Positions 1,049 through 12,822 of a stretch of 12,822 nt of DNA are shown here, piece after piece (the first letter of the stretch is position 1; every line of letters begins with the position of its first letter). The notes under the pieces were generated by a model. That model was given only the letters and a program-made list of their open reading frames with translations. It was not told the origin of the DNA and did not search any database. Origin of the DNA: a virus; the UHGV virus genome UHGV-1325350; one strand, given 5' to 3'. Made by a program: the position numbers and the translations under genes.

Positions 1049-1068
1049 TACTGCTTATTCATACAGTA
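1049..1068. promoter_or_regulatory. LexA operator (SOS box) TACTGCTTATTCATACAGTA
   Basis: 20-bp site with the CTG-N10-CAG core and TACTG / CAGTA ends of the LexA consensus TACTGTATATATATACAGTA. Located immediately upstream of the UmuD'-like gene and overlapping its predicted -10. Confidence 0.8.
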
Positions 1069-1094
1069 TACATTGAAAAGGCATAGTTTGTGAA
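1065..1094 (-). promoter_or_regulatory. Predicted sigma70 promoter of the UmuD'-like gene (-35 TTCACA, 18-bp spacer, -10 TATACT on minus strand)
   Basis: Read on the minus strand: TTCACA (plus 1089-1094), 18 bp, TATACT (plus 1065-1070). The -10 overlaps the LexA box, as in classic SOS promoters. Confidence 0.5.
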
Positions 1095-1153
1095 AGCGGG
1101 GTTTGTAGGCGCGCCACGCTGGGGGCTAATCACATTTCTCCCCCATCTTGCCG

Positions 1154-1405
1154 TTATTTTTTTGGTGCATCCTCGTTCTGATACACCGGATCGCTCCCTT
1201 TTGGCAACTGGAGGCTTAACTGCCGGTAGTGCCGTAGCCGTTCCATGAAATAGGCGCGCAGATTCTCTGGTTGCTCGCGGGCTACCTGTTCAGCTATGAC
1301 AGGTATGTTCAATCGCTCTTTGTACGCCACACCGCTGGCAGCCAGATCAACGTTAACCTTATCCCGTTCTTCCTGACTTTTAGCTGCAATATTCCAGTCG
1401 CTCAT
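1154..1405 (-). CDS. Hypothetical small phage protein (83 aa)
   Basis: ATG start at 1403-1405, 2 nt after the stop of the upstream lipoprotein gene; TAA stop at 1154-1156. Hydrophilic and charged; no family recognised. Confidence 0.6.
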
Positions 1406-1407
1406 AT

Positions 1408-1674
1408 TTAAGGCTCACATTTCCAGATGGTATTCTGAACACCAGAACCGGGCGCTAGATGAGGGTTAGCGTTCGCGCTATGCTGATATACTGCTTTAGA
1501 CTTCCCATATTGCTGACAGGCTTTATCTGCGGTTTTTTGCAGGCTATCCAGGCCATACCAACCATCTGACTGTATGCTTACCTTTTCACCGTCGTTGTAT
1601 TGCACCATTGCACACCCAGATATAGCCAGTATCGCGCCGACAATAACGCTTTTCCATAAAACTCTATGCAACAT
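1408..1674 (-). CDS. Putative lipoprotein (88 aa from ATG; ORF track begins at an upstream TTG at 1680)
   Basis: N-terminus [21 protein letters not shown] has a positively charged n-region, a hydrophobic core and lipobox L-A-I-S-G-C (SPase II type). Mature part about 67 aa with two further Cys. Start assigned to the ATG at 1672-1674. Confidence 0.65.
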
Positions 1675-1679
1675 ATACA

Positions 1680-1710
1680 AAAATCCCCTCTGTGAATTGA
1701 GGGGATTTTA
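1680..1710 (-). terminator. Intrinsic terminator hairpin after the 252-aa gene (probably bidirectional)
   Basis: AAAATCCCCTC (1680-1690) / GAGGGGATTTT (1699-1709) with 8-nt loop. On the minus-strand transcript the stem is followed by UUUUUGU. Sits 10 nt after the stop at 1720 and directly upstream of the lipoprotein start, so the stem also contains that gene's only SD-like element (GAGGGG). Confidence 0.7.
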
Positions 1711-1719
1711 GCATGGTGA

Positions 1720-2478
1720 TCAGATATCGGCTTTATTCGGAATTTTATCAGCCACCAGCGGCAATAAAGCCTTCGCCATTTCATGAACCAACATGGCATC
1801 AATGACGCCTAGCGTATGGCCCGGCTTAATCTTTAATGCGGCCTCAAGATAGCCTCTTTCCAGAGTGGTTTTTACGCTTTTCTTGGGCGATTGTTGGGAA
1901 CTATCCGGAAAATCCGGATGGTTGCCAGCCTCGTAAGCTACCCGCAGCCAGTGCATGAATGTTTCAGTGGACACACAACCACAGTCCACATCGATTTTCC
2001 CGCGTTGCTGTTCCAGCCATTGCCCAAAATCCAACCTGTAAGTCTTACTTTCAAGTTCATCACCATTGAACTCGACTTTCTGCGACGCTATGAGAGCTGA
2101 TTCGTATTGTTCGCGAGTGACAACTGACAGGTATTCATCGCTATCAAGGTCACCAATTGGAAGCTCAATCTCACAACAAAAATTGCGCCCAAAGAACGTG
2201 TCTTTTTTGTGGTCTGAGCCAAAAGCAAAAGTCGCGCATGGCGCCATTAAATTGGCACTGAGCAGGCGACAATCGATCATACCATCAGGCCACCCGCCGC
2301 ACTTAGGCAGCTCCTTCACTAACAAGTCGATAAGCTTCATTTTTTTATCATCTTTGCAAGCCGCCAAAGCCATTTGGGCAAGTGCCAATACTTCATCTGC
2401 CGTATATCCAGCACCGTGACCATACATTTCGATACGGGAAATAATATCTGAAATACGCTCTTTAGTGATTCTTGTCAT
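1720..2478 (-). CDS. Hypothetical Cys-rich phage protein (252 aa from ATG 2476-2478; longest ORF extends to 2496)
   Basis: The ATG at 2476-2478 overlaps the TGA of the upstream gene (ATGA coupling), as at many junctions in this operon. About 12 Cys including CC and CGC pairs. No family recognised. Followed by the terminator at 1680-1710. Confidence 0.65.
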   Translation of the reverse strand: MTRITKERISDIISRIEMYGHGAGYTADEVLALAQMALAACKDDKKMKLIDLLVKELPKCGGWPDGMIDCRLLSANLMAPCATFAFGSDHKKDTFFGRNFCCEIELPIGDLDSDEYLSVVTREQYESALIASQKVEFNGDELESKTYRLDFGQWLEQQRGKIDVDCGCVSTETFMHWLRVAYEAGNHPDFPDSSQQSPKKSVKTTLERGYLEAALKIKPGHTLGVIDAMLVHEMAKALLPLVADKIPNKADI

Positions 2479-2684
2479 AGTTTTATTTCCTTGCATGGTT
2501 CGCCTTTACGGCAAACAGCTACACGGTCATTTCTTACATTAACCACAGTCACCGTTCCGTCATCGCATTGAATAACGATGAAAGGGTGTTCATTCTCTTT
2601 TGTGCAATGTTGCTGTTCTCCAGCCATTGCAGCCGGAGGATCAAATAGCGCCAGAACAAATGCCAACCTTAAAAAATGCTTCAT
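2475..2684 (-). CDS. Small secreted Cys-rich protein (69 aa precursor, about 48 aa mature, 4 Cys)
   Basis: N-terminal signal peptide MKHFLRLAFVLALFDPPAAMA with A-M-A cleavage motif. Mature part has 4 cysteines, enough for two disulfides. ATG at 2682-2684 with AAGG Shine-Dalgarno formed by the last copy of the upstream direct repeat. Confidence 0.6.
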   Translation of the reverse strand: MKHFLRLAFVLALFDPPAAMAGEQQHCTKENEHPFIVIQCDDGTVTVVNVRNDRVAVCRKGEPCKEIKL

Positions 2685-2690
2685 TTGGCC

Positions 2691-2745
2691 TTATCCGTTA
2701 TCAAAATTGGAATATCCGTTATCACGAGCGTGATATCCGTTATGA
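2691..2745. repeat. Three direct repeats of TATCCGTTAT at 21-22 bp spacing (candidate iteron/regulator-binding array)
   Basis: TTATCCGTTATC (2691-2702), ATATCCGTTATC (2712-2723), ATATCCGTTATG (2734-2745). Lies in the 79-bp gap between the 58-aa membrane ORF and the secreted Cys-rich protein gene. Confidence 0.7.
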
Positions 2746-2763
2746 AGTGGGGAATAAGACCAC

Positions 2764-2940
2764 TTACCAATACCCTCCGCCTGACTCAAAGTTGGCGATA
2801 AGCCAGGCTGCGAAAAGAGTAACCCCGCTCCAAAAACCACACCCCACCGTACCCCATTTAACACCACCAGCTAATAAAATAAATAAACCGCAAAGGCATA
2901 CAAACAAAAAAGTAATCCAAAATTTCTTTCTGTTTTTCAT
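2764..2940 (-). CDS. Small membrane protein, 58 aa, two predicted TM helices (not in ORF track; below size cut-off)
   Basis: My translation of the minus strand: MKNRKKFWITFLFVCLCGLFILLAGGVKWGTVGCGFWSGVTLFAAWLIANFESGGGYW. Basic N-terminus then two hydrophobic segments. The ATG (2938-2940) overlaps the TAA of the upstream gene (TAATG coupling). TAA stop at 2764-2766. Confidence 0.45.
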   Translation of the reverse strand: MKNRKKFWITFLFVCLCGLFILLAGGVKWGTVGCGFWSGVTLFAAWLIANFESGGGYW

Positions 2941-3233
2941 TATGGTTGACTCCAGTTATCTTCAATAACAATACTTAACCTCTGAAGCCATTCTGCTAAT
3001 TTCAGCATGGCTTCTCTTTCGCTTAAACCACGCGGAAAATCATCAAGCGAAATTGTTGGCTTGAAGTTCCCCGAATTATCCATTTCAACGGTCAGATTTT
3101 GCTCCAGCACGGTATTCCTTACGCGGCTATTGTGCCGAAGCAAATATACTGAGCGTGATTTATTGGTTTTGTGGTCGAGCTGATATTCGGTAAGTATCAT
3201 CTGGCTTCCACCATGATTATTACCGCGCCACAT
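2940..3233 (-). CDS. Hypothetical phage protein (97 aa)
   Basis: ATG at 3231-3233 preceded by GGAG at 7-nt spacing. Alternative in-frame ATG at 3198-3200 (MILTEYQ...). No family recognised. Confidence 0.55.
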   Translation of the reverse strand: MWRGNNHGGSQMILTEYQLDHKTNKSRSVYLLRHNSRVRNTVLEQNLTVEMDNSGNFKPTISLDDFPRGLSEREAMLKLAEWLQRLSIVIEDNWSQP

Positions 3234-3245
3234 AATTACTCCGTG

Positions 3246-3650
3246 TTAATAAGAGAAATAGACCGTTGCAACACTGTTATATTGGTCGAACGAAATAGCA
3301 TTTACTTCATAGCTGGTGGGCAGCTTCTTACCAAGAATGTAGCCAGGCCATGAGTTCCACGGAATTTCTGTTCGGTCGTCGTCTTGCCACATTACGCAAC
3401 CAAGAGAGCCAACCATTTCACCATATCGCTTGCCACAAGTAACAAAGCCGATATTCGGCTTTTCTTGTGTTACTGATACCGTGGTGGTATTGGCAGATGC
3501 ATTGATTGCAGTACGTTGCTCATGCTCGCTGGCGGATGAGGCGCTAATTACAGCGGTTGCCGCAGCTCCCGCAGCAATAACCGGTGCATGAGATAAATGA
3601 CAGGCAGATAACATTGCCAGAAAAATAATATTTCTTTGAAATTTAGCCAT
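3246..3650 (-). CDS. Putative lipoprotein (134 aa)
   Basis: N-terminus MAKFQRNIIFLAMLSAC has an n-region, a hydrophobic core and lipobox L-S-A-C. Ala/Ser/Thr-rich linker after the Cys, then a globular region with two Cys. The ATG at 3648-3650 overlaps the end of the upstream gene by 8 nt. Confidence 0.65.
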   Translation of the reverse strand: MAKFQRNIIFLAMLSACHLSHAPVIAAGAAATAVISASSASEHEQRTAINASANTTTVSVTQEKPNIGFVTCGKRYGEMVGSLGCVMWQDDDRTEIPWNSWPGYILGKKLPTSYEVNAISFDQYNSVATVYFSY

Positions 3651-3924
3651 TGATATTAACCTTTATCGCAAATACCTTAACCGGATTCTCTCCAAAGTGC
3701 GGATGTGTAATTGTCTTTATTTCATACCCTTCATACGGGACGTCTATTCTGCGACTGGAATCGTCGCGCTTCGGATATCCCTTTGTGATAATCAGTCGGT
3801 CATATTCCCGGAACATGATTCGCTTATTCCAGTAGCCATTACACAAGCGATACTCTTCCGTTTTCTCTCCGCGAATCATGGCATCGAAGTATTCACCTTT
3901 GACGGCAAGTTGCAGGTTAGCCAT
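3643..3924 (-). CDS. ASCH domain protein (PUA-like fold), 93 aa from ATG 3922-3924 (longest ORF extends to 3945)
   Basis: Contains the ASCH signature GxKxxExR (IRGEKTEEYR) near the N-terminus. Internal ATG has a GGAGGTGAGG Shine-Dalgarno and overlaps the upstream TAA by 1 nt (TAATG). Confidence 0.6.
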   Translation of the reverse strand: MANLQLAVKGEYFDAMIRGEKTEEYRLCNGYWNKRIMFREYDRLIITKGYPKRDDSSRRIDVPYEGYEIKTITHPHFGENPVKVFAIKVNING

Positions 3925-4184
3925 TACCTCACCTCCAGTCTCCATACCGCCTGACCAATCCGGCTGGCATGGGTATCTTTAGATACTGTTCCGTCTTTAG
4001 CCAGCTCCATAAGAATTTTGCGCAAATCTGCCGAGCGCCATTCTTCATCAGGAAATTCCTTCTCCATTGCCAACCGCAGATTCCAGGTTGCTATCGTGAA
4101 TGGATATTCCCCGCCGAGAGCTTTCTCTTGCAGGGCCGCACGGGAACGTATCACCTGCAAAACCTTCTCTTTTACATCCATCAT
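3924..4184 (-). CDS. Hypothetical phage protein (86 aa from ATG 4182-4184; longest ORF extends to 4256)
   Basis: AGGAGG Shine-Dalgarno 4 nt upstream of tandem ATG codons. The first ATG overlaps the TGA of the DUF551 gene (ATGA). Confidence 0.6.
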   Translation of the reverse strand: MMDVKEKVLQVIRSRAALQEKALGGEYPFTIATWNLRLAMEKEFPDEEWRSADLRKILMELAKDGTVSKDTHASRIGQAVWRLEVR

Positions 4185-4948
4185 TTTGCCTCCTGCGGCG
4201 GTTCTGGTAGCGGCATCCAGTGTGATGGTATCCACGACGCACCAGGTATTACCCACCCATCATTAGCGTCAGGATGCCCCGGGATGTAAGTCGCCCATTT
4301 CATTCGCCAGTCACCTTTCCTGTCAAACTCCCTGGCAACAAGAACGGCTGTTTTGGTATCCGGCATTCGCTCACTACAGCTTATCCAACTATCCGGAATT
4401 ACCGGATAGTTGCGCATTGCGACCTTTAATGCCTCATAGAAGCAACCTTTCAGATTGTTGAACTGACGCCCATTTAGCGGGCCGTGTTCAGTCAGCATGT
4501 TGTGTAATTTCCATGCCGCGTCGTTTACTTCGTTGGATGACAGGGGAGGCAACTTGTAAGTTTGGCTTACAGGTTCGGCACCATGAAGCATGGCAGCACG
4601 GCAGGCGTTCCAGCCAGCTGTTCGCCCAAGCGAGTAAACTTCAGATGGCTCAAGATAATCAATGTCATGCCCGTCCTCATCGTCGTTCTCAGGTAATGCA
4701 GCAGGTACTACTGGTACTGGAGGGGCGGCATAAACAGGAATAACGTCCGCTTGCTCTTTATTGCTTTCATCCGTTAAAGCCCAGAATAATTTCCCGGCCG
4801 GATGTTTGAAAATATAAGCAACTGGATCTGCTTCCAGCGATGCCAGTGCAATTTCATAAGCACGGCGCTCAATATTGTCTCGAACGTCCAAGCTGCCTAT
4901 GCGCTCTTTGATTTCTTTAATCAGTTCTTTGTCGGTGAAAGTGGTCAT
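4181..4948 (-). CDS. DUF551 domain-containing phage protein (255 aa)
   Basis: C-terminal region WISCSERMPD...VLV...W...SHWMPLPEPP matches the remembered DUF551 signature (HWMPLPEPP-type ending). AGGAG Shine-Dalgarno at 7 nt. Pro/Ala-rich linker in the middle. Confidence 0.6.
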   Translation of the reverse strand: MTTFTDKELIKEIKERIGSLDVRDNIERRAYEIALASLEADPVAYIFKHPAGKLFWALTDESNKEQADVIPVYAAPPVPVVPAALPENDDEDGHDIDYLEPSEVYSLGRTAGWNACRAAMLHGAEPVSQTYKLPPLSSNEVNDAAWKLHNMLTEHGPLNGRQFNNLKGCFYEALKVAMRNYPVIPDSWISCSERMPDTKTAVLVAREFDRKGDWRMKWATYIPGHPDANDGWVIPGASWIPSHWMPLPEPPQEAK

Positions 4949-4949
4949 G

Positions 4950-5702
4950 TCACTCTCCTTTGATGCGAATGCCAGCGTCAGACATCATATGCAGATACTC
5001 AACTGCATCCTGAACCCATTGACCGCCAATCCCGTAATAGCGATGCGTAATGATGTCGATAGTTACTAACGGGTCTTGTTCGATTAACTTCCGCAGAAAC
5101 TCTTCCAGGTCACCAGTGCAGTGCTTGATGACAGGAGTTTTCCCAGGATGGCGAACAACAAGAAACTGATTTCCGACTTCACGGACTTCGTTGCTTTTCA
5201 GTTCTGCAATGCGCTTCTCTGAGGCTTCCAGCTTCTCTCGCATATCGTCAACGTACTCGACCAGAGAACCGCCAGCAGGAATTTCGCACTCCTCGACCAG
5301 TTGGAAGTAGATATCAGCTGCGGCCCGTGTGTTGCTATGCCTAGCGTCGCCCATCTCACCTTCACGAAGAGCATCGCGTTCGGCGGTAAGATTGGCTATT
5401 TTGCTGTCTTTGCCTTCCAGCTCAACGCGCAGCCTCCCAACCGTAAGCGCAATATCCTCGTTCTCCTGGTCGCGGCGTTTGATGTATTGCAGGTTTCTTT
5501 CCCGTTCATCCAGCAGCGTCAGCACGGTTTCTGGTCCGGTCAGAAATTTGAAGGCGTTGAGCGCATCAATATCCACACCATAATCTTTAAGTTCCTGTTC
5601 ACTTAACAAATCATCATCAGCTGGCAACATTAACAGGCGTTCCATTGCTGGAATTGCACGTTCCGCCGCCTCACGCAGTGCCTGGTAATTAATTTTGCTC
5701 AC
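4950..5702 (-). CDS. Ead/Ea22-like coiled-coil protein, paralog A (250 aa, GTG start)
   Basis: GTG at 5700-5702 with GGAGG at 7 nt. Central heptad-like segments RLRVELEGKD and KRIAELKSNE shared with the paralogs at 8276-8986 and 9306-10007. A 17-nt stretch (5199-5215) is identical to 8636-8652. Confidence 0.6.
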   Translation of the reverse strand: MSKINYQALREAAERAIPAMERLLMLPADDDLLSEQELKDYGVDIDALNAFKFLTGPETVLTLLDERERNLQYIKRRDQENEDIALTVGRLRVELEGKDSKIANLTAERDALREGEMGDARHSNTRAAADIYFQLVEECEIPAGGSLVEYVDDMREKLEASEKRIAELKSNEVREVGNQFLVVRHPGKTPVIKHCTGDLEEFLRKLIEQDPLVTIDIITHRYYGIGGQWVQDAVEYLHMMSDAGIRIKGE

Positions 5703-5988
5703 TGGTTGCCTCCGCTTTCCACGTTTTCAGACTTTCACCACAGAACGGGCAAAATGAAACCCGAATCGGCGATTTAGAAAACTCGCCTGACCGAAGCATG
5801 ATCAGATCTTGTGAATGAATTAATTCATGGTTATAGATTTTGTATTTCAGCAGACCTTTTCGCGTCGTGTATTCAGCATCCTGCTCCAGAGATTGTGCCA
5901 GCGCCGCGCACGGTTCTATTTTTCTGTCATTAATCAAACAAGTGGAGATTCTGCACTTTGCAGCTCCGTCACCGTTACCTTGACTCAT
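5689..5988 (-). CDS. Small putative zinc-ribbon protein (99 aa)
   Basis: Cys pairs C-x4-C (CRISTC) and C-x2-C (CPFCGE). ATG at 5986-5988. Confidence 0.5.
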   Translation of the reverse strand: MSQGNGDGAAKCRISTCLINDRKIEPCAALAQSLEQDAEYTTRKGLLKYKIYNHELIHSQDLIMLRSGEFSKSPIRVSFCPFCGESLKTWKAEATSEQN

Positions 5989-6001
5989 TGCGTTGTTTCC
6001 A

Positions 6002-6997
6002 TCAGTTATTGAACGTGATCACTCCGCGCTCAATGGCGAAGTCGAAAAGCTGGTTAGCGGCTACGTAAAGGCGGATGCCATGTGCTTTTTCCCATGCCCG
6101 GACATCGTTTTCTGCGCTTCTGGCGCAGTCATCGCAAAGAGGAACAGCCCAGCGGTCGTGTTCGTTTAACGAGCGGGCGCGGTACATGAATGGGTGGTTA
6201 ACTTTGCCACCGCATCCGATGCACGGACGAGAAACCACAAACCGGAGATAAGCCGGGCTTTTACCGAGGACCGCTTTTGGTCGGCGCATATAAAGCAGGC
6301 CGGAATCCTCATCTACAGACAGGTTGACGATCTGCTCTGCGGTTATGTCCACCAGCTCGCGGGTACTGTGCTCCCAGGTGATATCTGATTCTTTCAGCGT
6401 ACCGGTAGGGATTTCAGTTTTTGGCTGACAAAATGCAATGCGACCGGCTTCATCTGGCAGCTCATCTTTCAGATTCCGGCGAATGGCCCAAAAAGTGAGT
6501 TCAACCATGCTCAGATCGCGTTCTGGCGGTAGTTTTAACTCGCTCGCAGCCCAGTTCATAACCCAGTTGGCACGATTCAGGGATAACTGGTCGTCCAGCT
6601 TGCTGTACCCCTTCATCATGTATTCCGCATCATGCTTCCAGCACAGGCGAACGGCAGAGCCGTTATAGAAATGAGTGGTTAGCTGGTGGCTGCAATCGCG
6701 CTTATCGTGCGCCTGGCAATCGTGGATATTGGAACTTACCCAATGAACAAGCGAATCTTCACCGCCCAACGCGTTAAATACGCGCTCGCTTTGAAAAAAC
6801 GGTTTCAGAGACTGGTTGGCAACCAGCGAATAATTCAGATCCACTACGCCATCTGGCGTGTTTTCAGCCTGTTCACGCGGAAGTGGGGAGATAATGAAAC
6901 GGCGACCTACGCCAATGTAGTTACTGGTGGGCTTGTCTACCGGAAAGACAGCCACACCAGCTCCGTTTACGAAATGAGGTGTGATTATTGCACTCAT
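6002..6997 (-). CDS. DUF968-like phage protein with C-terminal Cys/His cluster (possible His-Me finger/HNH-like nuclease), 331 aa
   Basis: C-terminus PCIGCGG-x3-H...NEHD...VPLCDDC resembles the C-x2-C...H...H...LPLC pattern in the Ref-like protein at 11208-11786. A second Cys/His-rich patch lies near residues 90-130. Weak Shine-Dalgarno. Preceded by an operator-like palindrome. Confidence 0.55.
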   Translation of the reverse strand: MSAIITPHFVNGAGVAVFPVDKPTSNYIGVGRRFIISPLPREQAENTPDGVVDLNYSLVANQSLKPFFQSERVFNALGGEDSLVHWVSSNIHDCQAHDKRDCSHQLTTHFYNGSAVRLCWKHDAEYMMKGYSKLDDQLSLNRANWVMNWAASELKLPPERDLSMVELTFWAIRRNLKDELPDEAGRIAFCQPKTEIPTGTLKESDITWEHSTRELVDITAEQIVNLSVDEDSGLLYMRRPKAVLGKSPAYLRFVVSRPCIGCGGKVNHPFMYRARSLNEHDRWAVPLCDDCARSAENDVRAWEKAHGIRLYVAANQLFDFAIERGVITFNN

Positions 6998-7038
6998 AAT
7001 GTATACCGACTCTGTTTTGTTCCGAGCGGTAAAATAAT

Positions 7039-7069
7039 ATGTTAGAAAACTAAAATCAATGTTCTAACA
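7039..7069. promoter_or_regulatory. Operator-like palindrome TGTTAGAA-N14-TTCTAACA containing the recurring 11-mer ATGTTAGAAAA; possible internal promoter
   Basis: Perfect 8-bp inverted arms at 7040-7047 and 7062-7069 in the 97-bp gap between the phosphatase and DUF968 genes. On the minus strand TTGATT (plus 7054-7059) sits between the arms as a -35 candidate. The same 11-mer recurs at 11129-11139 and 11787-11797. Confidence 0.5.
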
Positions 7070-7094
7070 CATTATGAGTGCGTAAATGATTTGA

Positions 7095-7784
7095 TCAGAC
7101 TTTAAGCTGCCCTCCCTTCACCTGCATTAGCGTCAGATTTCCGCAAAAAACCGCGCCCGTGTCTATGTAGTGCTGATTCCAGTATGCTTTTGGTCTTCGT
7201 ACCGGTGTGTGCCCAAAGATAAAGCGATCTGCGCCTGTGATTTCTCCACCAATGCCATCTATCGAATCACTGATACGCTCGCGCGCCCAGACAACGTTGA
7301 AAAGCGGCACCTCCTTACCGAATTGATATTCATTATCCGGATAGTCGGCATGGGCTATAACGATAGTTTCTTGCCCGGTGTTCAACTCAATGATATAGGG
7401 CAGTCGTCTTACCAACTCCACCAGCGCCCTGGCTAATATTTCCTGATCAGCGTCCAGCATGAAGAACCATTGACCGCCATTCATTAGCCAGTTATTCACG
7501 TTGCCATCAGGACTTAACGCATCGAGCATCAACAGCTCATGGTTCCCCACTACTGCCCTGAACCAGGGCATCTGCAATAGCTCCAGGCATTCAACATTTT
7601 CGGCGCCGCGATCGATAAGGTCGCCAACCGATATCAGTAAATCCTGTGTCGGGTCAAAATCCACACGATGGAGTTCATTCATAAGTAGGGTGTAGCAACC
7701 GTGCAAATCACCAACAACCCATATGTTTCTGTAGCCTGAACCATCAATACGGCTATATAACGCCTGGTCGTTAACGGTGATCAT
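7095..7784 (-). CDS. Ser/Thr protein phosphatase, lambda PPase (NinI/PrpA)-like metallophosphatase (229 aa)
   Basis: PPP-family motifs GDLHG, GDLIDRG and GNHE in the expected order. Close resemblance throughout to lambda PPase as I recall it. ATG overlaps the upstream TGA (ATGA). Confidence 0.9.
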
Positions 7785-8008
7785 TCTGCAACATCCTCCA
7801 AATCAGCAACCGCGTCCATCACATCAGAACCGCGAATAACTTCAAAAGCGCGGCAGGCCATTTGAAATACCTGTTGTTCTTGCGGGTGCGGAGACTCCCA
7901 ATATTTGAAGCCTGGGCGATGCGTGTACCCCATCATGGAATAAAAATCGCCAGCAAGTTCAATCGCGGCATCAACAAGTTCGCGATTAGTCATTCGCTTT
8001 GCTGCCAT
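7781..8008 (-). CDS. Hypothetical small phage protein (75 aa)
   Basis: ATG at 8006-8008 preceded by AGGAG at 8 nt. Acidic C-terminus. Overlaps the upstream gene by 23 nt. Confidence 0.55.
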
Positions 8009-8279
8009 TTGCTTTCTCCTGTCGGAACATCACGATCATCAGGTCACCTTTTGTCGCTATCCTGGCTGTTGTGCCAGGCTCAATGCGGCTAAGTTCAAAT
8101 GCGTCATAGAACGCCTCTAACGCTTTCTGGCGTCTCTCCTGTTTGCGGCGCTTTCCCCACTGCATTAGAAAAACAGAGGCCGCCCACTTCCCCGCACTGA
8201 ACATGATGTAAAACCAACCGAGCAGGGCCAAACCTGTGTTGAGGGCCGTATCGAGCGTTATCGTGGTGTCGATATTCAC
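7986..8279 (-). CDS. Small membrane protein (97 aa, GTG start), one or two TM segments followed by a basic cytoplasmic region
   Basis: GTG at 8277-8279 overlaps the TGA of the upstream gene (GTGA) and is preceded by AGGGGG. Hydrophobic stretch TALNTGLALLGWFYIMFSAGKWAASVFLM followed by KRRKQERRQK. Confidence 0.55.
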   Translation of the reverse strand: MNIDTTITLDTALNTGLALLGWFYIMFSAGKWAASVFLMQWGKRRKQERRQKALEAFYDAFELSRIEPGTTARIATKGDLMIVMFRQEKANGSKAND

Positions 8280-8986
8280 TGATTGCCCCCTTCCCTAAGC
8301 TGTTCTGCACAATGCAGCAGCGCACCTGTCGCATCTTTAAGCGTCACTAGCTCGTCATCATCCAGTCCTACTCCCCTCGCGTCCCTGACAAACGCCGCGC
8401 AAAGGTCGTTAAACGCCCCCGCCCGCACTTCAGCCAGGAAAGCGCCAGTAGCAGGGGTGTCAATGCAAACACTGTCACGAAGGATGAAGAACGCATTAAG
8501 CATTCCTCTTTCTGGTACATCGTCCTGGCATTCCTCATATGCAACCAATGCATCCATCATTTTCTGACCGAATTGCTGAGGGTGTGCAGATTTCAGTGCT
8601 ATATTCTCCGCCGCCAGCGTCGCGCGATTGCTCTCCAGTTCTGCAATGCGCTGTTTTGCAGCATCAAGTTCAATCGATAATTTTTCCAACTGCTCTTTAT
8701 GCTTCTTGTATTCCTGATATGCGTGCCAGGACTGACCTTTGCGCACACTATCAGTAATATCAGTAATCTGTTCTGGTGTTAGCGTGGTCAGTGGCTGTGC
8801 TGGGAAAATCAGCACTTTCCCGGAATCCCAATCAAAACCAGCGTGAATTGACTGAACCTCAACTGAGGGTGTTGAACCAATGCTGCCAGGCGAATGAACA
8901 ACGATCGTTACATCCATATCGCGACGATGGCTGTGGTTGTTGGACAAAATACGATTCACCAACTCAGAAAATTTGGAAAATTTCAT
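8276..8986 (-). CDS. Ead/Ea22-like coiled-coil protein, paralog B (236 aa from ATG 8984-8986; ORF track GTG at 9037)
   Basis: The ATG overlaps the TGA of the ClpX-ZBD-like gene (ATGA) and is preceded by AGGGA. Central segment [18 protein letters not shown] shared with paralogs A and C. Confidence 0.6.
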
Positions 8987-9309
8987 GCTGATTCCCTTTG
9001 CTCTTCCTGGATAATGTTGTTGCAATCTTTCACGCACTCGTCGCAGATGAAAACGTTGTCCCCGGCAATTAACTTTTTAACGGTGTGCTGGGATTTGTTG
9101 CAGAAGCTGCAATAAAGCGTTGGACTGGCTGATACGGATGGTGCGCCAGATGTCAGCCGCGCGATGTCGTTCTTGCGACGCAATATCACACGGCTGCACT
9201 CGACCAGCATCTCCGGGGATATCTCCTCCTCCGTAGCGAGCGTCTCTAATCGTTCGAGTATGTGGAAGGCTTTTTCCTGGGTAATTGCAGAATGAGATGT
9301 GGTCATCAT
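8983..9309 (-). CDS. Free-standing ClpX-type C4 zinc-binding domain protein (ClpX N-domain mimic), 108 aa
   Basis: C-terminal [39 protein letters not shown] aligns nearly residue-for-residue with the E. coli ClpX N-terminal zinc-binding domain ([39 protein letters not shown]), including all four Cys. No AAA+ module follows. ATG overlaps the upstream TGA; AGGGG Shine-Dalgarno. Confidence 0.85.
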
Positions 9310-10007
9310 CTTTCCCCTTCAAAGTTCGGGCGCAGGCAGGATTGTCCTTTACGAAGCAGGGCTGCGAACCTGTCGGCCGCATCCGCGCAAGCAGAAGCAA
9401 CGGAATCAAAAAATGGATCATCTCCGGTATCGCGCATCGTCAAAGCGAATGCCTCCAATCCCTTAGCCTGTATTTCTACAAGATAAGCCTCAGATATAGT
9501 GCTTTTCGCTTCACCTAACTCGTTATGAGCTATGTTCGCTACGCATGCGATGTCTATATCTGGATGATTAATTGGGAGATGGCTAAGAATTGCCTCAAGT
9601 GCTGCTTTTTTGTTTTGGCATTCCGCCACCAGCGCCCCGCTATTGCTTTCCAGCTCTGCAATACACTTTTTAGCGGCCTCCAGCTCAACACGCAGCTTCT
9701 CAAGCGTTAGGGCCATCTCCACGTTCTCGTCCAGAAGTTCAATCACATCAGGATCGCTACCATCAACTACTGATATGCGCGAATTTTTGTAATGCTCGTC
9801 AGCATAAGTTCGTCCAGTTTTGAAGCATCCGTCATCCTCCATGCCGGAACAGGCATAAACAACATGTGATCCAGATATGCGCTGCATTGACATTTCCTCG
9901 CCACAAACAGGGCATTTAGGCGCTGGTTTCGGTGAATAACGTTCACGTAACGGATAGTAAAGCTCGATCTCCGCCAGTTGCTCTGGCGTTAAACCTTCAG
10001 ACTTCAT
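9306..10007 (-). CDS. Ead/Ea22-like coiled-coil protein, paralog C, with N-terminal Cys-rich zinc-ribbon-like segment (233 aa)
   Basis: ATG at 10005-10007 with AAGGAG at 5 nt. CPVCGEE...CSGMEDDGC near the N-terminus. Central [18 protein letters not shown] shared with paralogs A and B. Confidence 0.65.
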
Positions 10008-10314
10008 GTACTCTCCTTTCGAAATAAACGTACTGATTAATCATGCCCAGGGGCATTTCGAGTTTTTCCGCGATCTCACGGCGGGGAACACCACACTGAT
10101 GAAGCTGCCGTGCCAGTTCTATATCGCTCTGCCGGTATTTGGCTGACGGATGAAAGTCTCCTTTCAGAATCATGCTGATCCCCAGCTCCCGCGCTTTAGT
10201 CCTGACGGCATCACCGGTACGACCGATCAGCTTCCCAATACTCTCTACCGTCATAGTTCCGGCGCACTGGCGGAGTATCATGATTTCTGCCCTTCCCCAT
10301 CCCCGCCAGCTCAC
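9997..10314 (-). CDS. Small DNA-binding protein with two helix-turn-helix-like segments (105 aa with GTG start; 94 aa if internal ATG)
   Basis: Segments MTVESIGKLIGRTGDAVRTKARELGIS and SDIELARQLHQCGVPRREIAEKLEMP each look like an HTH (resolvase/sigma region 4 style). GTG at 10312-10314 overlaps the TGA of the DUF4406 gene (GTGA). Confidence 0.55.
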   Translation of the reverse strand: MSWRGWGRAEIMILRQCAGTMTVESIGKLIGRTGDAVRTKARELGISMILKGDFHPSAKYRQSDIELARQLHQCGVPRREIAEKLEMPLGMINQYVYFERRVHEV

Positions 10315-10934
10315 GCCGACATCCTCCGAGACATAAACTCCACAAAACGAACTGCATCTTCAGAAACAACACCGCATGACTTCAGATAATTCATTGCGTC
10401 ATTAGGTAGCGGATTAGTTGGTTCGGCATTTGCCAGGGATTGAGATAAACGCGTGATTAATTTGACCATTCTCCGCTGTCGGAGGTTGTATCCTTCGGCT
10501 AAAGACAGGTAACTGGAAAGGGTATTGCTTAAGCGAGCGCGAAGCTGATCCGTGCCGTGACATTCAATAGCAACATCACGCAACGCATCGACCAGTTCGC
10601 GGTAAATATGCGCTGCCATTCTGCAATCTGTGTCAGATGGCGCTTCATAAATTACCGTCAGCTCCAGTTTTTCAGCCAGGGCGTGTTCTGCTCGTGCTCC
10701 TGCGGACGCTTCCCAGCCCTTAAGCAGATAGATAGCATCAGCAGAACGCACCATTGCCAGGCAAATATCCATGTATTCACTCTGACAAAGTCCACCAGGT
10801 AACACCGCTGGATTCAGAACGATATGCCCTTCAGCCGTCAGCTCACTCGCCTTCGCATTAAACGCCGCGCGGTTGTAATCTGGATAACCAGTCATCGGAC
10901 CCGCGATGTAAATTTTCAAAACACGTTTCACCAT
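10311..10934 (-). CDS. DUF4406 (nucleoside 2-deoxyribosyltransferase-like fold) protein with about 110-aa C-terminal extension (207 aa from ATG 10932-10934; ORF track TTG at 10961)
   Basis: N-terminal KIYIAGPMTGYPDYNRAAFNAKASELTAEGHIVLNP matches the YI(A/S)GPMTG...N...AF signature remembered for DUF4406/NDT-like proteins. The ATG overlaps the stop of the upstream 51-aa ORF (TGATG); GGGGAA Shine-Dalgarno. Confidence 0.6.
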   Translation of the reverse strand: MVKRVLKIYIAGPMTGYPDYNRAAFNAKASELTAEGHIVLNPAVLPGGLCQSEYMDICLAMVRSADAIYLLKGWEASAGARAEHALAEKLELTVIYEAPSDTDCRMAAHIYRELVDALRDVAIECHGTDQLRARLSNTLSSYLSLAEGYNLRQRRMVKLITRLSQSLANAEPTNPLPNDAMNYLKSCGVVSEDAVRFVEFMSRRMSA

Positions 10935-11089
10935 CAAAATTTCCCCAGCATCGTGACGCAAAACATAAGCACTGCAAAAAGCTCAATACCAAGCTCAAGT
11001 AGCGCCAACGCGCCGAAAAACAGCACATAAAACAGGCCGATCTCATTCACAGGTGGCTGGTGGATCGCACTTAAGGCTATAAGCATCAT
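10934..11089 (-). CDS. Small hydrophobic membrane protein, 51 aa; first gene of the leftward operon (not in ORF track)
   Basis: My translation: MMLIALSAIHQPPVNEIGLFYVLFFGALALLELGIELFAVLMFCVTMLGKF. GGAGGA Shine-Dalgarno just upstream of tandem ATG (11084-11089). TGA overlaps the ATG of the DUF4406 gene. Confidence 0.4.
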   Translation of the reverse strand: MMLIALSAIHQPPVNEIGLFYVLFFGALALLELGIELFAVLMFCVTMLGKF

Positions 11090-11115
11090 GTCCTCCAAAC
11101 AGTAAACAGCGACTG

Positions 11116-11143
11116 ATATTAATGTTTTATGTTAGAAAATCAA
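11116..11143 (-). promoter_or_regulatory. Predicted sigma70 promoter of the leftward operon (-35 TTGATT, 16-bp spacer, -10 TAATAT on minus strand)
   Basis: Minus-strand sequence TTGATT-TTCTAACATAAAACAT-TAATAT. The operator half-site TTCTAACAT lies in the spacer. About 25 nt upstream of the GGAGGA Shine-Dalgarno of the first ORF. Confidence 0.55.
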
Positions 11144-11159
11144 TTTTGAATATCTAACA
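11130..11159. promoter_or_regulatory. Operator-like palindrome TGTTAGA-N16-TCTAACA in the divergent control region
   Basis: Inverted 7-bp arms at 11130-11136 and 11153-11159. Contains the 11-mer ATGTTAGAAAA (11129-11139) also found at 7039-7049 and, in opposite orientation, at 11787-11797. Lies between the leftward operon and the rightward Ref-like gene. Confidence 0.55.
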
Positions 11160-11207
11160 AATATGATCAATCATAAAAAAATCGCTGATAAGTAAGAGGC
11201 AGCCAAC

Positions 11208-11786
11208 ATGCAGAGACAGAGTTATTGGGAGAAACAGAGACAAAAAGCCATGCAAAAACTGGCTGATCCGGAATGGCGGGAAGAGCAAAGGGCAAAACGT
11301 CTTCAGCAGGCTCAACGCCAGCAGCAACGCGCAAGGGAAAAAGCCGCATCGCCTGAATATCGTCAAAAGAAACTTGAAAAAGTGAGGCAAAATGAACAGC
11401 GCAGAAGAGAGAGGGCGGCGTCAGCCCTCCCCAAAAAAACGCGCCCGTCACGCGGATTAAAAGGGAGATCACTCACAGCAGAAGAGCGCCGGATACAGGA
11501 CGCTATAGGCAAACTCCCCTGTATTGCCTGCCATCTTCACGGGAAGCATAGCCCTGTCGTATCTCTCCACCACATATTTGGCAGAACGGCTAAAGATGCC
11601 CATAAATACGTTCTCCCTTTGTGTAAATGGCACCACCAGCACGCAGCGCCAGCAGAGATCCGCGAACAATATCCCTGGTTGGTTCCTGTTCATGCTGATG
11701 GAAAAATAGGCGGGAAAGCAGATTTTATACGGCACAATGCCGAAGAGATGACGCTCTATCAGACGGTGCAAGAAATGGTGAATTAA
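11208..11786 (+). CDS. ref: Ref-like recombination enhancement function protein: HNH-type nuclease with basic low-complexity N-terminal half (phage P1 Ref-like), 192 aa
   Basis: N-terminal about 95 residues are K/R/Q/E-rich and look disordered. C-terminal half carries a His-Me finger/HNH-like motif (CIACHLHGKH...SLHHIFGR...LPLCKWHHQH). AAGAGG Shine-Dalgarno 8 nt upstream of the ATG. Architecture matches what is known for P1 Ref. Confidence 0.6.
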   Translation: MQRQSYWEKQRQKAMQKLADPEWREEQRAKRLQQAQRQQQRAREKAASPEYRQKKLEKVRQNEQRRRERAASALPKKTRPSRGLKGRSLTAEERRIQDAIGKLPCIACHLHGKHSPVVSLHHIFGRTAKDAHKYVLPLCKWHHQHAAPAEIREQYPWLVPVHADGKIGGKADFIRHNAEEMTLYQTVQEMVN

Positions 11787-11805
11787 TTTTCTAACATTTT
11801 ATGTT
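11787..11805. promoter_or_regulatory. Third copy of the operator 11-mer (TTTTCTAACAT) with small palindrome AACAT-TTT-ATGTT, immediately after the ref stop
   Basis: Exact 11-mer at 11787-11797 in forward orientation. A possible rightward promoter follows (TTGAGT 11804-11809, 17 bp, TACATT 11827-11832). Confidence 0.4.
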
Positions 11806-11910
11806 GAGTTTGAAATTTACTGATTGTACATTTTGATTAGATTGGTTCACCGCTCGACGCAACGAGACAAATCCTCAAGGATTTCGTATGATTGCCAATG
11901 TCATAGTTAT

Positions 11911-11977
11911 GGCAGCGCAATACAGGTGGCTAAAAGCCCCCGTTGACTCACGGTGTTCCAACCTGTATTGCGCCGCC
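11911..11977. repeat. Long inverted repeat (13-bp perfect arms GCGCAATACAGGT / ACCTGTATTGCGC, extendable to about 19 bp with 2 mismatches, 33-bp spacer)
   Basis: Arms at 11915-11927 and 11961-11973. No U-run follows, so it is not a typical intrinsic terminator. Lies in a 330-bp region without a confident gene. Confidence 0.6.
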
Positions 11978-12117
11978 ACCAGACCGTGGAACAGTCTGTG
12001 ACGGCTTCGAAAGCAAGGAGTCACTATGAACAATTACAAACTTTTCCCATCACTCACCGTCTACTCACGCAATAACCTGCGTTCTTTGCTCCCATCAAAA
12101 CTGGAGGGAGTATCAAA

Positions 12118-12285
12118 ATGACCGTTCGCTACCTGAATTATCAAATCCAGAACATCACTGGCGGTTGCTATGACTGGTTTGTCACTCTCGGAAAAGAAGT
12201 GATTACAGGGAAACTGGATGAAGTGAAAGCTAAGGCGTTGGCTTATGCCTGTAAACAATCCATGAAAATGAAAAGAAAAAAATAA
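12118..12285 (+). CDS. Hypothetical small protein, 55 aa, with basic C-terminal tail (not in ORF track)
   Basis: ATG at 12118-12120 preceded by GGAGGGAG at about 8 nt. My translation: MTVRYLNYQIQNITGGCYDWFVTLGKEVITGKLDEVKAKALAYACKQSMKMKRKK. TAA stop at 12283-12285, followed by a hairpin. Confidence 0.5.
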   Translation: MTVRYLNYQIQNITGGCYDWFVTLGKEVITGKLDEVKAKALAYACKQSMKMKRKK

Positions 12286-12298
12286 CAATGGGAACAAT

Positions 12299-12327
12299 CC
12301 GCCCCACTCCGCTATAAGGTGGGGCGG
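12299..12327. terminator. GC-rich hairpin between convergent genes (candidate bidirectional terminator)
   Basis: CCGCCCCAC (12299-12307) / GTGGGGCGG (12319-12327) with 11-nt loop. U-runs are imperfect on both sides, so terminator function is uncertain. Confidence 0.45.
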
Positions 12328-12342
12328 CATAATTAATACTGG

Positions 12343-12735
12343 TTAAAACTCACCTGCACGCTGTTTTTCAAGCACAGATTTAACATTTGGCGCTTTACCC
12401 TCAAAAGAATGGAAAGTGCCACATTTTTCTGTCTTCACCTCGCGCAGAGCTTCGCCATCGGCATTCTGCCATTGATGGGATAATGTCATATCACCGCGAG
12501 AAGGAACATCAAGCGAGTACAGCGTATAAGTGCCTCCCATCTCTGCATATTCCTGGAACACATAACTCATTACGTCAGATTCAGTTTTACGATGTGCGTT
12601 ATCGACCTTATTCCCGTTCAGAAATATAGCGTTTGGATAGATTTTTATATCAAACTGACCGCATTTCACTTGCAGATTCCCAGCGTCTGCCAGCAAAGGA
12701 AAAGCAGCCAATAAAGCAATAGCCAATCTTTTCAA
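12343..12735 (-). CDS. Putative secreted/periplasmic protein with signal peptide (130 aa, TTG start)
   Basis: N-terminus MKRLAIALLAAFPLLADA is a typical Sec signal peptide with an A-D-A cleavage motif. TTG start at 12733-12735 preceded by GGAGG at 5 nt. No family recognised; could be host or prophage cargo. Confidence 0.6.
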   Translation of the reverse strand: MKRLAIALLAAFPLLADAGNLQVKCGQFDIKIYPNAIFLNGNKVDNAHRKTESDVMSYVFQEYAEMGGTYTLYSLDVPSRGDMTLSHQWQNADGEALREVKTEKCGTFHSFEGKAPNVKSVLEKQRAGEF

Positions 12736-12822
12736 TTCTGCCTCCGCTGCGTAACTTATTGCCCGTATTTTTTACACCATTGCTCTGCCATTTGTTTGGC
12801 TAAAGGCCCGGCTACTGCACTG

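What the first reader, a model, noticed from the sequence alone, without database searches (positions are those of the whole stretch)
11208..11786. P1 Ref-like RecA-dependent HNH nuclease placed divergently from the early operon
The protein has a basic, low-complexity N-terminal half and a C-terminal Cys/His motif typical of His-Me finger nucleases, matching P1 Ref, which cuts DNA at RecA-formed D-loops. It is the only sizeable rightward gene here and shares the operator-containing control region with the leftward operon. With the HumD-like gene and the phosphatase, this gives a P1-flavoured set of accessory functions inside what otherwise looks like a lambdoid-style early region.
Basis: partly seen in the sequence, partly recalled or inferred. 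Interest (0 to 1): 0.6.

Follow-up and report, generated by a model that had tools for sequence, protein, structure and literature searches.

The report
Known Ref nuclease gene in phage-plasmid
The gene is a clear, intact relative of phage P1's Ref nuclease, which cuts DNA only where RecA is bound; databases already name it, and it sits in a P1/D6-type phage-plasmid rather than a lambda-like phage, so it is ordinary.

Summary
The ORF at 11208-11786 (+), 192 aa, is real and belongs to the Ref family. It scores E 2.7e-36 against Pfam PF16786 and E 1e-51 against the P1 Ref crystal structure 3PLW. Its nuclease core is 65% identical to P1 Ref, and the predicted fold superposes on 3PLW at 0.9 Å. All active-site and zinc-binding Cys/His residues are present, and the N-terminal segment carries the same net +16 charge as in P1. 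dN/dS is 0.13.

RefSeq already names a protein one residue different 'Ref family recombination enhancement nuclease', and phage D6 has an annotated orthologue. RecA dependence is inferred by homology, not tested.

The window is 91-99% identical to ~90-kb E. coli plasmids and ~85% to phage D6, so it is a P1-family phage-plasmid, not a lambdoid early region.

The 'operator-containing control region' does hold up. A 17-bp motif, AATTRATTTTCTAACAT, occurs 11 times in the closest plasmid against 0.4 expected. It forms a back-to-back pair in the ref/leftward-operon gap and recurs over the ref stop codon, mirroring P1's Oref/Omat operators with a different sequence.

The P1 leader attenuator is absent. 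A second, divergent C4-like antisense RNA lies downstream.

The parts
11208..11786 (+). ref orthologue: 192-aa Ref-family recombination-enhancement nuclease (the end coordinate includes the stop codon)
   Evidence: Pfam PF16786 scores 124 bits against a cutoff of 26.9. PDB 3PLW matches at E 1.1e-51. PHROG 2321 matches at E 2e-79. The RefSeq protein WP_077249931.1 differs by only N62S. dN/dS is 0.13 against the E. marmotae plasmid orthologue.
11208..11453 (+). Basic N-terminal segment (residues 1-82); by homology, the DNA-binding anchor of Ref
   Evidence: It has 26 K+R and a net charge of +16, compared with 25 K+R and +16 for P1 residues 1-76. Among 26 family members the length varies from 59 to 99 aa, but the net charge stays at +9 to +17. 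In P1 Ref this segment is required for DNA binding (PMC4330346).
11454..11783 (+). HNH / beta-beta-alpha-metal nuclease core (residues 83-192)
   Evidence: It is 65% identical to P1 Ref residues 77-183. C105, C108, H121, H122, H132, C139, H142, H143 and H162 are invariant in 51 homologues. The AF2 model matches 3PLW at rmsd 0.9 Å with target-normalised TM 0.94.
11129..11145 (-). Operator-like 17-mer AATTGATTTTCTAACAT; left half of a 32-bp imperfect palindrome in the divergent control region
   Evidence: It scores 26.9 bits with the weight matrix. It belongs to a dispersed motif family with 11 sites against 0.4 expected in pTB423, all non-coding or at gene ends. It is conserved in five relatives while the flanks diverge.
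11144..11160 (+). Weaker partner half-site TTTTGAATATCTAACAA, overlapping the left half by 2 bp
   Evidence: It scores 10.0 bits, which is weak on its own. The same 2-bp-overlap geometry is seen at 7039-7070 and in D6. This half-site is closer to consensus in the E. marmotae and S. dysenteriae relatives.
11781..11797 (+). Operator-like 17-mer AATTAATTTTCTAACAT overlapping the ref stop codon (TAA 11784-11786)
   Evidence: It is the best weight-matrix score in the window, 28.7 bits. It is conserved in five relatives. It corresponds in position to the P1 operator Omat, which overlaps the P1 ref stop codon.
11146..11174 (+). Candidate rightward ref promoter: TTGAAT, 17-bp spacer, AATCAT (8 of 12 matches to consensus), overlapped by the right half-site; includes an invariant GATC at 11165-11168
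   Evidence: It was found only by a relaxed consensus scan. The strict scan found no promoter here. Its elements are conserved in relatives. This is an inference only.
11116..11143 (-). Candidate leftward promoter: TTGATT, 16-bp spacer, TAATAT (8 of 12 matches), overlapped by the left half-site
   Evidence: It was found by the relaxed consensus scan. This is an inference only.
10934..11089 (-). First gene of the leftward array: a 51-aa hydrophobic peptide with an upstream GGAGGA ribosome-binding site
   Evidence: It is an ORF in the list and is annotated in pTB423 and D6. It matches phrog_8890 at E 2e-34.

Best explanation
This is the ref gene of a D6-type, P1-family phage-plasmid.

Its product is a two-part protein. 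The first part is a roughly 82-residue, strongly basic N-terminal segment that binds DNA and anchors the protein to the RecA filament. The second is a 110-residue HNH (beta-beta-alpha-metal) nuclease core with two zinc sites.

By homology with P1 Ref, it should cut DNA only where RecA is bound. In P1, Ref nicks first the paired strand and then the displaced strand of RecA-made D-loops.

In P1 this activity stimulates recombination, boosts the SOS response, blocks cell division, and sensitises lysogens to DNA-damaging antibiotics.

Expression is most likely shut off in the plasmid prophage by the element's own distant C1-type repressor. That repressor would bind a 32-bp back-to-back operator pair lying over two divergent weak promoters, with a further operator over the ref stop codon. 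The gene would then be turned on in lytic growth.

Shown here: family membership, fold, conservation of catalytic and metal residues, purifying selection, and the existence, enrichment and conservation of the operator-like motif.

Inferred: RecA dependence, the identity of the protein that binds the motif, the promoter positions, and the timing of expression.
For: Family and fold: PF16786 at E 2.7e-36; 3PLW at E 1.1e-51 by sequence; Foldseek E 7.6e-15, rmsd 0.9 Å over 107 columns, with every other PDB hit above E 1.

Catalytic residues: the P1 active-site residues H134 and H153 correspond to H143 and H162. P1 C96/C99/C130/H133 correspond to C105/C108/C139/H142. All are invariant in 51 homologues.

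N-terminal segment: its charge matches P1 and is conserved across the family.

Selection: dN/dS is 0.13 overall, 0.15 for the N-terminal part and 0.12 for the core.

Existing annotation: the orthologues in D6 and in more than 100 E. coli, Salmonella and Shigella plasmids are annotated as Ref.

Operator motif: 11 sites against 0.4 expected in pTB423, all in non-coding DNA or at gene ends. They lie next to the lytic-replication gene, upstream of c4/icd/ant, next to the C1-like gene, near mat, upstream of the gene before pacA, and flanking ref.

Repressor candidate: the gene at the c1 position encodes a distant C1 homologue, 20% identical over 239 aa with pairwise E 6e-8.

P1 parallel: P1 ref is itself flanked by C1 operators, Oref upstream and Omat over its stop codon. 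P1 ref is a C1-repressed lytic gene (PMC4713147).

Footprint: the operator block is conserved while its flanks diverge in five relatives.
Against: No biochemical data exist for this protein or for the D6 orthologue. The N-terminal segment is only 23/64 identical to P1 over aligned positions and carries an insertion of about 21 residues relative to P1. Details of RecA-filament docking could therefore differ.

The residues of Ref that contact RecA are not defined in the papers I read, so RecA dependence cannot be checked from sequence.

The promoter assignments are weak. They match consensus at only 8 of 12 positions, and the strict scan found none.

The right half-site scores only 10 bits, a level that shuffled sequence reaches about 0.8 times per window.

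The protein that binds the motif is unidentified. The C1-like assignment rests on gene position and a weak pairwise similarity, and neither Pfam nor PHROGs names that protein.

The P1 leader attenuator hairpin is absent here, so regulation is not identical to P1.
Confidence: 0.85

Rival explanations
1. It is a Ref-family HNH nuclease whose activity is not coupled to RecA. It might act as a general or structure-specific nuclease, or with another partner, and the diverged N-terminal segment would redirect it.
For: The N-terminal segment, which in P1 is proposed to anchor Ref in the RecA filament groove, is only 23/64 identical to P1 and has an insertion of about 21 residues. The genomic neighbourhood also differs from P1: the gene is divergent from the DUF4406 operon and next to a C4-like RNA.
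Against: The core is 65% identical to P1 Ref with every metal and catalytic residue kept. N-terminal charge is conserved across the family despite sequence drift, so charge rather than sequence appears to be what is selected. In P1 and phiW39 Ref, removing up to 47 N-terminal residues does not abolish RecA-dependent cutting (PMC4330346). The gene is not next to the terminase genes, so a packaging-HNH role is unlikely.
Confidence: 0.08
2. The 17-bp motif is not a repressor operator. It would instead be a binding site for another factor, such as a late activator, a nucleoid protein or a partition/packaging factor, or simply a conserved promoter element. In that case ref would not be under immunity control.
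For: The binding protein is unidentified. The motif does not resemble the P1 C1 operator ATTGCTCTAATAAATTT, and no P1-type site exists in the window. The control regions are A+T-rich at 69%, and in P1 the host protein H-NS binds the ref 5' region (PMC4713147).
Against: The sites are distributed as P1 C1 operators are: next to the C1-like gene, upstream of c4/icd/ant, next to the lytic-replication gene, near mat, and flanking ref. They are asymmetric 17-mers occurring singly or as overlapping inverted pairs, as described in the P1 record. They overlap the candidate -35 boxes and spacers. The element's C1 homologue is highly diverged, which would explain a different operator sequence.
Confidence: 0.12
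3. The ORF is a decaying or non-functional remnant carried along by the plasmid.
For: None beyond the general fact that accessory genes of phage-plasmids are often lost. Some database entries are truncated.
Against: The reading frame is intact and has a good ribosome-binding site. dN/dS is 0.13 on both halves. All catalytic residues are invariant. The gene is present in 115 of 5426 complete E. coli genomes, almost always on ~90-kb plasmids.
Confidence: 0.02

Closest known systems
[quoted passage not shown]
   Same: Both have the same two-part build, a basic N-terminal segment of about 80 residues with net charge +16 followed by a 110-residue HNH core. The core is 65% identical, and the active-site residues (P1 H134/H153) and the Cys/His zinc ligands are all identical. 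The predicted fold superposes at 0.9 Å. In both, the gene is flanked by 17-bp repressor-type operators, one upstream and one over the stop codon.
   Different: The N-terminal sequence is only 23/64 identical and has an insertion of about 21 residues. There is no Cys11, the residue behind the incidental disulfide dimer of P1 Ref, which phiW39 Ref also lacks. The operator sequence differs: AATTRATTTTCTAACAT here against ATTGCTCTAATAAATTT in P1. The upstream site is a back-to-back pair serving divergent transcription, not a single site. The terminator-like leader hairpin of P1 (-16.2 kcal/mol followed by U8) is absent. The neighbours also differ: P1 has cre-c8-ref-mat, all rightward, while here ref is divergent from a DUF4406...ppp array and is followed by a C4-like RNA.
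Escherichia phage D6 orf87 / Ref-like RecA filament endonuclease (YP_009914764.1)
   Same: It is the direct orthologue: 192 aa, 84% identical, with the same neighbours on both sides, the same operator layout, and a control region 95% identical.
   Different: It has minor substitutions, for example H145 here is Y in D6. In D6 an icd/ant module follows the C4-like RNA about 0.7 kb further on. The window has a leftward 130-aa gene there instead.
Staphylococcus phage PhiNM1 Gp16 (RecA-dependent HNH nuclease; PMC12817073)
   Same: It is a functional analogue: an early phage HNH nickase reported to depend on RecA, inhibit host growth and favour lytic development.
   Different: It is not a family member. 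Gp16 has a NinB-like N-terminal domain and an IscB-like HNH domain. It did not appear among the homologues of the window protein.
P1 C1 repressor/operator immunity network (Oref, Omat, Oc1ab and others)
   Same: Both use a dispersed, asymmetric 17-bp site, found singly or as overlapping inverted pairs, placed in front of lytic and immunity genes and around ref. A C1 homologue is encoded next to pacB.
   Different: The consensus sequence differs. Paired sites overlap by 2 bp here against 6 bp in P1 Oc1ab. The repressor homologue is 345 aa and only 20% identical to P1 C1. Binding is untested.

Membership tests
Ref family (Pfam PF16786 RecA_dep_nuc; prototype P1 Ref) | Sequence match to the family profile above the curated threshold | tested here: met
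   The protein scores 124.2 bits against a gathering score of 26.9, E 2.7e-36, over residues 90-191. It also matches PHROG 2321 'Ref-like RecA filament endonuclease' at E 2.3e-79.
Ref family (Pfam PF16786 RecA_dep_nuc; prototype P1 Ref) | HNH / beta-beta-alpha-metal core fold as in 3PLW | tested here: met
   The AF2 model has mean pLDDT 88.9, with core 10-residue blocks at 88-98. The Foldseek top hit is 3PLW at E 7.6e-15, target-normalised TM 0.94 and rmsd 0.9 Å. The next hits are other HNH enzymes above E 1. This is a predicted structure, not a solved one.
Ref family (Pfam PF16786 RecA_dep_nuc; prototype P1 Ref) | Active-site histidines (P1 H134 and H153, the latter coordinating the active-site Zn) and the Cys/His ligands of the second Zn | tested here: met
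   H143 and H162 correspond to P1 H134 and H153. C105/C108/C139/H142 correspond to P1 C96/C99/C130/H133. All are invariant in 51 homologues. The roles of the residues are taken from PMC3973344 and PMC4713147. The assignment of the Cys/His quartet to the second zinc is my inference.
Ref family (Pfam PF16786 RecA_dep_nuc; prototype P1 Ref) | Highly basic N-terminal segment of about 76 residues, required for DNA binding | tested here: met
   The first 82 residues hold 26 K+R with net charge +16, compared with 25 of 76 and net +16 in P1. The family range is +9 to +17. DNA binding itself was not tested.
Ref family (Pfam PF16786 RecA_dep_nuc; prototype P1 Ref) | Nuclease activity strictly dependent on a RecA filament (cuts RecA-bound ssDNA and D-loops) | not testable with these tools
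   This is a biochemical property. It is inferred only from 65% core identity to P1 Ref.
P1-type ref regulatory unit | Immunity-repressor operator overlapping the ref promoter, plus a second operator at the 3' end of ref | tested here: inconclusive
   Operator-like 17-mers lie at 11129-11160 and 11781-11797. They are enriched, dispersed and conserved, and their positions mirror Oref and Omat. The binding protein and the promoters are not demonstrated.
P1-type ref regulatory unit | Terminator-like attenuator hairpin in the ref leader | tested here: not met
   The P1 leader folds at -16.2 kcal/mol and is followed by U8. The window leader folds at -3.3 kcal/mol with z 0.3, and no plus-strand terminator-like site lies between 11100 and 11208.
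   The window is 91-99% identical to plasmid pTB423 and about 85% identical to phage D6. Those elements carry P1-type pacA/pacB, a C1 homologue, a lytic replication gene, mat, C4 RNA, icd/ant, a cre-like recombinase and plasmid partition genes.

The most novel reading that the evidence does not exclude
Two heteroimmune lineages, P1 and the D6 type, keep ref inside the same operator bracket even though the operator sequence has been completely replaced. One site or site pair lies over the promoter, and another lies exactly over the stop codon about 650 bp away.

That would suggest the bracket itself is selected. It could work through repressor-mediated looping, or as a roadblock that seals a toxic RecA-dependent nuclease gene in the prophage. 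It could also couple ref to the downstream unit, which is mat in P1 and a second C4-like antisense RNA with two small coupled ORFs here.

In this reading the D6 type has dispensed with the P1 leader attenuator and relies on a bivalent, bidirectional operator instead.
Probability: 0.25. Interest if true: 0.35.

Novelty: already known. Interest (0 to 1): 0.15.

Why it matters
For the gene itself, little is new. It is a correctly recognisable orthologue of a well-studied enzyme, already named in RefSeq and in the phage D6 records.

It has practical relevance because D6-type phage-plasmids are common in E. coli, Salmonella and Shigella. This ref region is present in 115 of 5426 complete E. coli genomes. 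P1 Ref is known to raise ciprofloxacin lethality in lysogens (PMC4713147), so the D6-type enzyme is a natural second example to test.

Two things are modestly useful. The first is the candidate operator consensus for the D6-type immunity system, AATTRATTTTCTAACAT.

The second is the observation that the operator positions around ref are conserved between heteroimmune phages.

Tried and rejected
- **NCBIfam scan:** it returned no family for the protein, although RefSeq names it. This is uninformative.
- **P1-type C1 operator (ATTGCTCTAATAAATTT):** there are no matches in the window at up to 3 mismatches. The element therefore does not use P1 immunity specificity.
- **Strict sigma-70 scan:** it found no promoter in 11090-11207. 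Only 8-of-12 matches appear with relaxed criteria, so the promoter positions stay tentative.
- **TATGAT at 11162-11167:** I first considered this as the -10 box because it lies 1 nt after the right half-site, as in P1 P2ref. I rejected it because relatives have TTTGAT or TTCGAT there.
- **LexA box in the ref control region:** none was found. The only good LexA box in the window is upstream of the humD-like gene.
- **Helical N-terminus as a D6-type peculiarity:** AF2 predicts three confident helices for residues 6-71. A P1-type control that is 96% identical to P1 Ref is predicted helical too, although the P1 N-terminus is disordered experimentally. The prediction therefore does not distinguish the two types.
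- **Pfam and PHROGs for the C1-like protein:** no named family came up. Only a direct pairwise comparison with P1 C1 showed the relationship.
- **D6 genome paper:** Gilcrease & Casjens 2018 (citation recalled from memory, not checked) could not be retrieved by DOI or by my guessed PMC id. Searching the motif as text gave only unrelated papers.
- **Sandbox files:** several fetched loci were not exported to the scripting sandbox. The plasmid-wide motif counts therefore come from the built-in pattern search rather than my own scan.

Full report
**1. The observation**

It runs 11208-11786 on the plus strand, starts with ATG and encodes 192 aa. A Shine-Dalgarno sequence AAGAGG lies 8 nt upstream.

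The composition described is correct. Residues 1-82 contain 26 Lys+Arg and 10 Asp+Glu (net +16), many Gln and Ala, and no Cys or His. Residues 83-192 hold all 3 Cys and 11 His.

The gene is divergent from a leftward array, and a 118-bp gap (11090-11207, 69.5% A+T) lies between them. The array starts with a 51-aa hydrophobic ORF at 10934-11089.

One detail is wrong. Ref is not the only sizeable rightward gene, because the last 191 codons of a rightward gene end at 595.

**2. What the protein is**

Every test points to the Ref family.

- Pfam PF16786 (RecA-dependent nuclease) matches at 124 bits against a cutoff of 26.9.
- PHROG 2321 'Ref-like RecA filament endonuclease' matches at E 2e-79.
- The P1 Ref crystal-structure sequence 3PLW matches at E 1.1e-51 over residues 28-192.
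- In a three-way alignment with D6 and P1 Ref, the core is 65% identical to P1.

The literature defines P1 Ref in three parts. It has a disordered, charged N-terminal segment of 76 residues that is required for DNA binding. It has a 110-residue HNH core with two Zn2+ ions. The active-site Zn is held by three histidines including H153, and H134/H153 is the pair used for the double active-site variant (PMC4330346, PMC3973344, PMC4713147).

These residues map to H143 and H162 here. The CxxC...CxxH quartet maps to C105/C108/C139/H142. All of them, plus H121, H122 and H132, are invariant in a 51-sequence family alignment.

An AlphaFold2 model (mean pLDDT 88.9) superposes on 3PLW at 0.9 Å rmsd with target-normalised TM 0.94. 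All other PDB hits are HNH enzymes above E 1.

The N-terminal segment is poorly conserved in sequence, 23/64 identical to P1 with an insertion of about 21 residues. Its net charge is the same, and across 26 homologues the length varies from 59 to 99 aa while the charge stays between +9 and +17.

Against a 75%-identical orthologue from an E. marmotae plasmid, dN/dS is 0.13, with 0.15 for the N-terminal part and 0.12 for the core. Both halves are therefore under purifying selection.

**3. Where it sits**

The window is not lambdoid.

The 1.5 kb around ref is 99.9% identical to three ~90-kb E. coli plasmids and 84.5% identical to phage D6. Across the whole window, identity to plasmid pTB423 is 98.9% at both ends and about 91% in the middle.

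pTB423 and D6 are P1-family phage-plasmids. They carry pacA/pacB, portal, head and tail genes, a lytic replication gene, mat, icd/ant, a cre-like recombinase, and partition and replication genes.

The D6 record annotates the leftward genes of this window as similar to P1 genes: humD (641-1030), hot (1154-1405), pdcB (6002-6997) and ppp (7095-7784). Pfam agrees with S24 peptidase, Pol III theta, DUF968 and metallophosphoesterase respectively.

The small ead/Ea22-, DUF551- and DUF4752-type genes between them are shared with lambdoid phages.

RefSeq already names a protein differing by one residue (N62S) 'Ref family recombination enhancement nuclease'. D6 orf87 is annotated 'similar to P1 gene ref'. 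The family comprises at least 148 protein clusters, mostly on 85-100 kb contigs of Enterobacterales.

**4. The control region**

A 17-mer, AATTGATTTTCTAACAT, lies at 11129-11145 on the minus strand. A near-identical copy, AATTAATTTTCTAACAT, lies at 11781-11797 on the plus strand, overlapping the ref stop codon.

In the complete plasmid pTB423 the motif occurs 11 times at 3 or fewer mismatches, against about 0.4 expected. All 11 sites are in non-coding DNA or at gene ends. They lie:

- next to the lytic replication gene
- upstream of the C4/icd/ant module
- immediately upstream of the gene at the c1 position
- at the end of the cre-like gene
- upstream of the gene preceding pacA
- between pdcB and ppp
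- near mat
- on both sides of ref

That c1-position gene encodes a 345-aa protein that is a distant homologue of P1 C1, 20% identical over 239 aa with pairwise E 6e-8.

A weight matrix built from these sites finds exactly five sites in the window. They are the two strong sites around ref, a weak partner at 11144-11160, and a pair at 7039-7055 and 7054-7070 between pdcB and ppp. Both pairs are back-to-back with a 2-bp overlap, forming 32-bp imperfect palindromes. D6 has the same layout.

Five relatives give a clean footprint. In the E. marmotae and S. dysenteriae plasmids the intergenic flanks are largely different. The 32-bp block, an adjacent GATC (11165-11168 in the window) and the site at the ref stop codon are nearly unchanged, and the weak half-site is closer to consensus in those relatives.

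P1 has the same architecture with a different sequence. Oref lies between the -35 and -10 boxes of P2ref, and Omat overlaps the ref stop codon. The P1 record also annotates bivalent overlapping operators, such as Oc1ab. No P1-type operator sequence exists in the window.

I infer that these are the operators of the element's own C1-type repressor. Ref, like P1 ref, would then be a repressed lytic-cycle gene (PMC4713147).

The promoter positions are tentative. The candidates are TTGAAT-17-AATCAT rightward and TTGATT-16-TAATAT leftward. Their -35 boxes sit back to back at the dyad centre, and each matches consensus at only 8 of 12 positions.

One clear difference from P1 is the leader. The strong terminator-like hairpin in the P1 ref leader is absent here.

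**5. Mechanism**

By homology, the basic N-terminal segment binds DNA and anchors the protein to a RecA filament. The HNH core nicks RecA-bound DNA, cutting first the paired strand and then the displaced strand of a D-loop.

In P1 the physiological effects are stimulated recombination, an enhanced SOS response, blocked cell division and increased quinolone lethality in lysogens.

None of this was measured for the D6-type enzyme. RecA dependence cannot be tested computationally.

**6. Verdict**

The gene call is correct and the gene is already known and annotated. The surrounding element is a D6-type, P1-family phage-plasmid, so the 'P1 genes in a lambdoid setting' reading is not supported.

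The only mildly new material is the candidate operator consensus for D6-type immunity and the conserved operator bracket around ref. I could not check either against the D6 genome paper.

Noticed in passing
window 11905-11983 (+), with a promoter-like site at 11864-11892: A C4 antisense-RNA-like element lies just downstream of ref. It scores 39.7 bits against Rfam RF01695, below the gathering score of 45, with E 9e-5. It folds at -40 kcal/mol (z -4.9). The closest plasmid also has a canonical C4 (68.8 bits) with its a1b1 targets upstream of icd/ant elsewhere. The copy next to ref is therefore a second, divergent one, and D6 conserves it.
   Followed up: partly
window 11987-12285 (+): Two small ORFs follow the C4-like RNA, 12026-12121 (31 aa) and 12118-12285 (55 aa, phrog_7786), and they overlap at an ATGA. 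Unpaired parts of the C4-like RNA are complementary to TGGAACA (11987-11993) and to GAGTCA (12018-12023). The latter overlaps the Shine-Dalgarno sequence of the first ORF, as would be expected for C4-type translational repression.
   Followed up: partly
window 1049-1068 (- strand): A near-consensus LexA box, TACTGTATGAATAAGCAGTA, lies about 18 nt upstream of the start codon of the humD-like (UmuD'-like, S24 peptidase) gene at 641-1030. This suggests SOS control of that gene. The loose pattern itself occurs at chance frequency in the window (3 matches against 3.8 expected), so the argument rests on position and on the quality of the match.
   Followed up: partly
window 7039-7070: A second back-to-back pair of the operator-like 17-mers sits in the 97-bp gap between the ppp-like and pdcB-like genes. 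A candidate leftward promoter (TTGATT-17-TATTTT) lies over it. The long leftward array is therefore probably at least two repressor-controlled units rather than one operon. This region is 98% identical to D6.
   Followed up: partly
window 11439-11454 (- strand), inside ref: A terminator-like hairpin followed by a T-run, CGCGTGACGGGCGCG TTTTTTT, reads on the antisense strand within the ref coding sequence, at the junction of the basic segment and the nuclease core. It could stop antisense transcription entering ref from downstream.
   Followed up: no
window 11165-11168: A GATC (Dam) site in the spacer of the candidate ref promoter is invariant in all five relatives compared, even where neighbouring bases vary.
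   Followed up: no
L004 (pTB423) 40355-41622: Another gene of the plasmid, a 410-aa hypothetical protein at 40372-41604, is bracketed in the same way as ref. Operator-like 17-mers lie immediately before its start and immediately after its stop.
   Followed up: no
window 3924-9968 compared with pTB423: The window is a mosaic relative to its closest complete plasmid. It is 98.9% identical at 1-3923 and 9969-12822, but only about 91% identical, with indels and unaligned stretches, in the middle of the leftward accessory array. This indicates recombinational exchange of accessory genes between D6-type elements.
   Followed up: no
window 596-713 (- strand): Weak Rfam 'leader' hits (rnk and Phe leaders, E 0.3-0.5) are caused by a strong GC-rich hairpin followed by a U-run, AAGCCCGCCAGACCUGGCGGGCUUUUU. 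It lies between the convergent rightward gene ending at 595 and the humD-like gene, and is most simply an intrinsic terminator.
   Followed up: no
window 10311-10961 (-): The first large gene of the leftward unit is a DUF4406 protein. It also matches a PHROG annotated as nucleoside 2-deoxyribosyltransferase at E 1.7e-42. A DNA-binding protein and a protein with a ClpX-type C4 zinc finger follow it.
   Followed up: no
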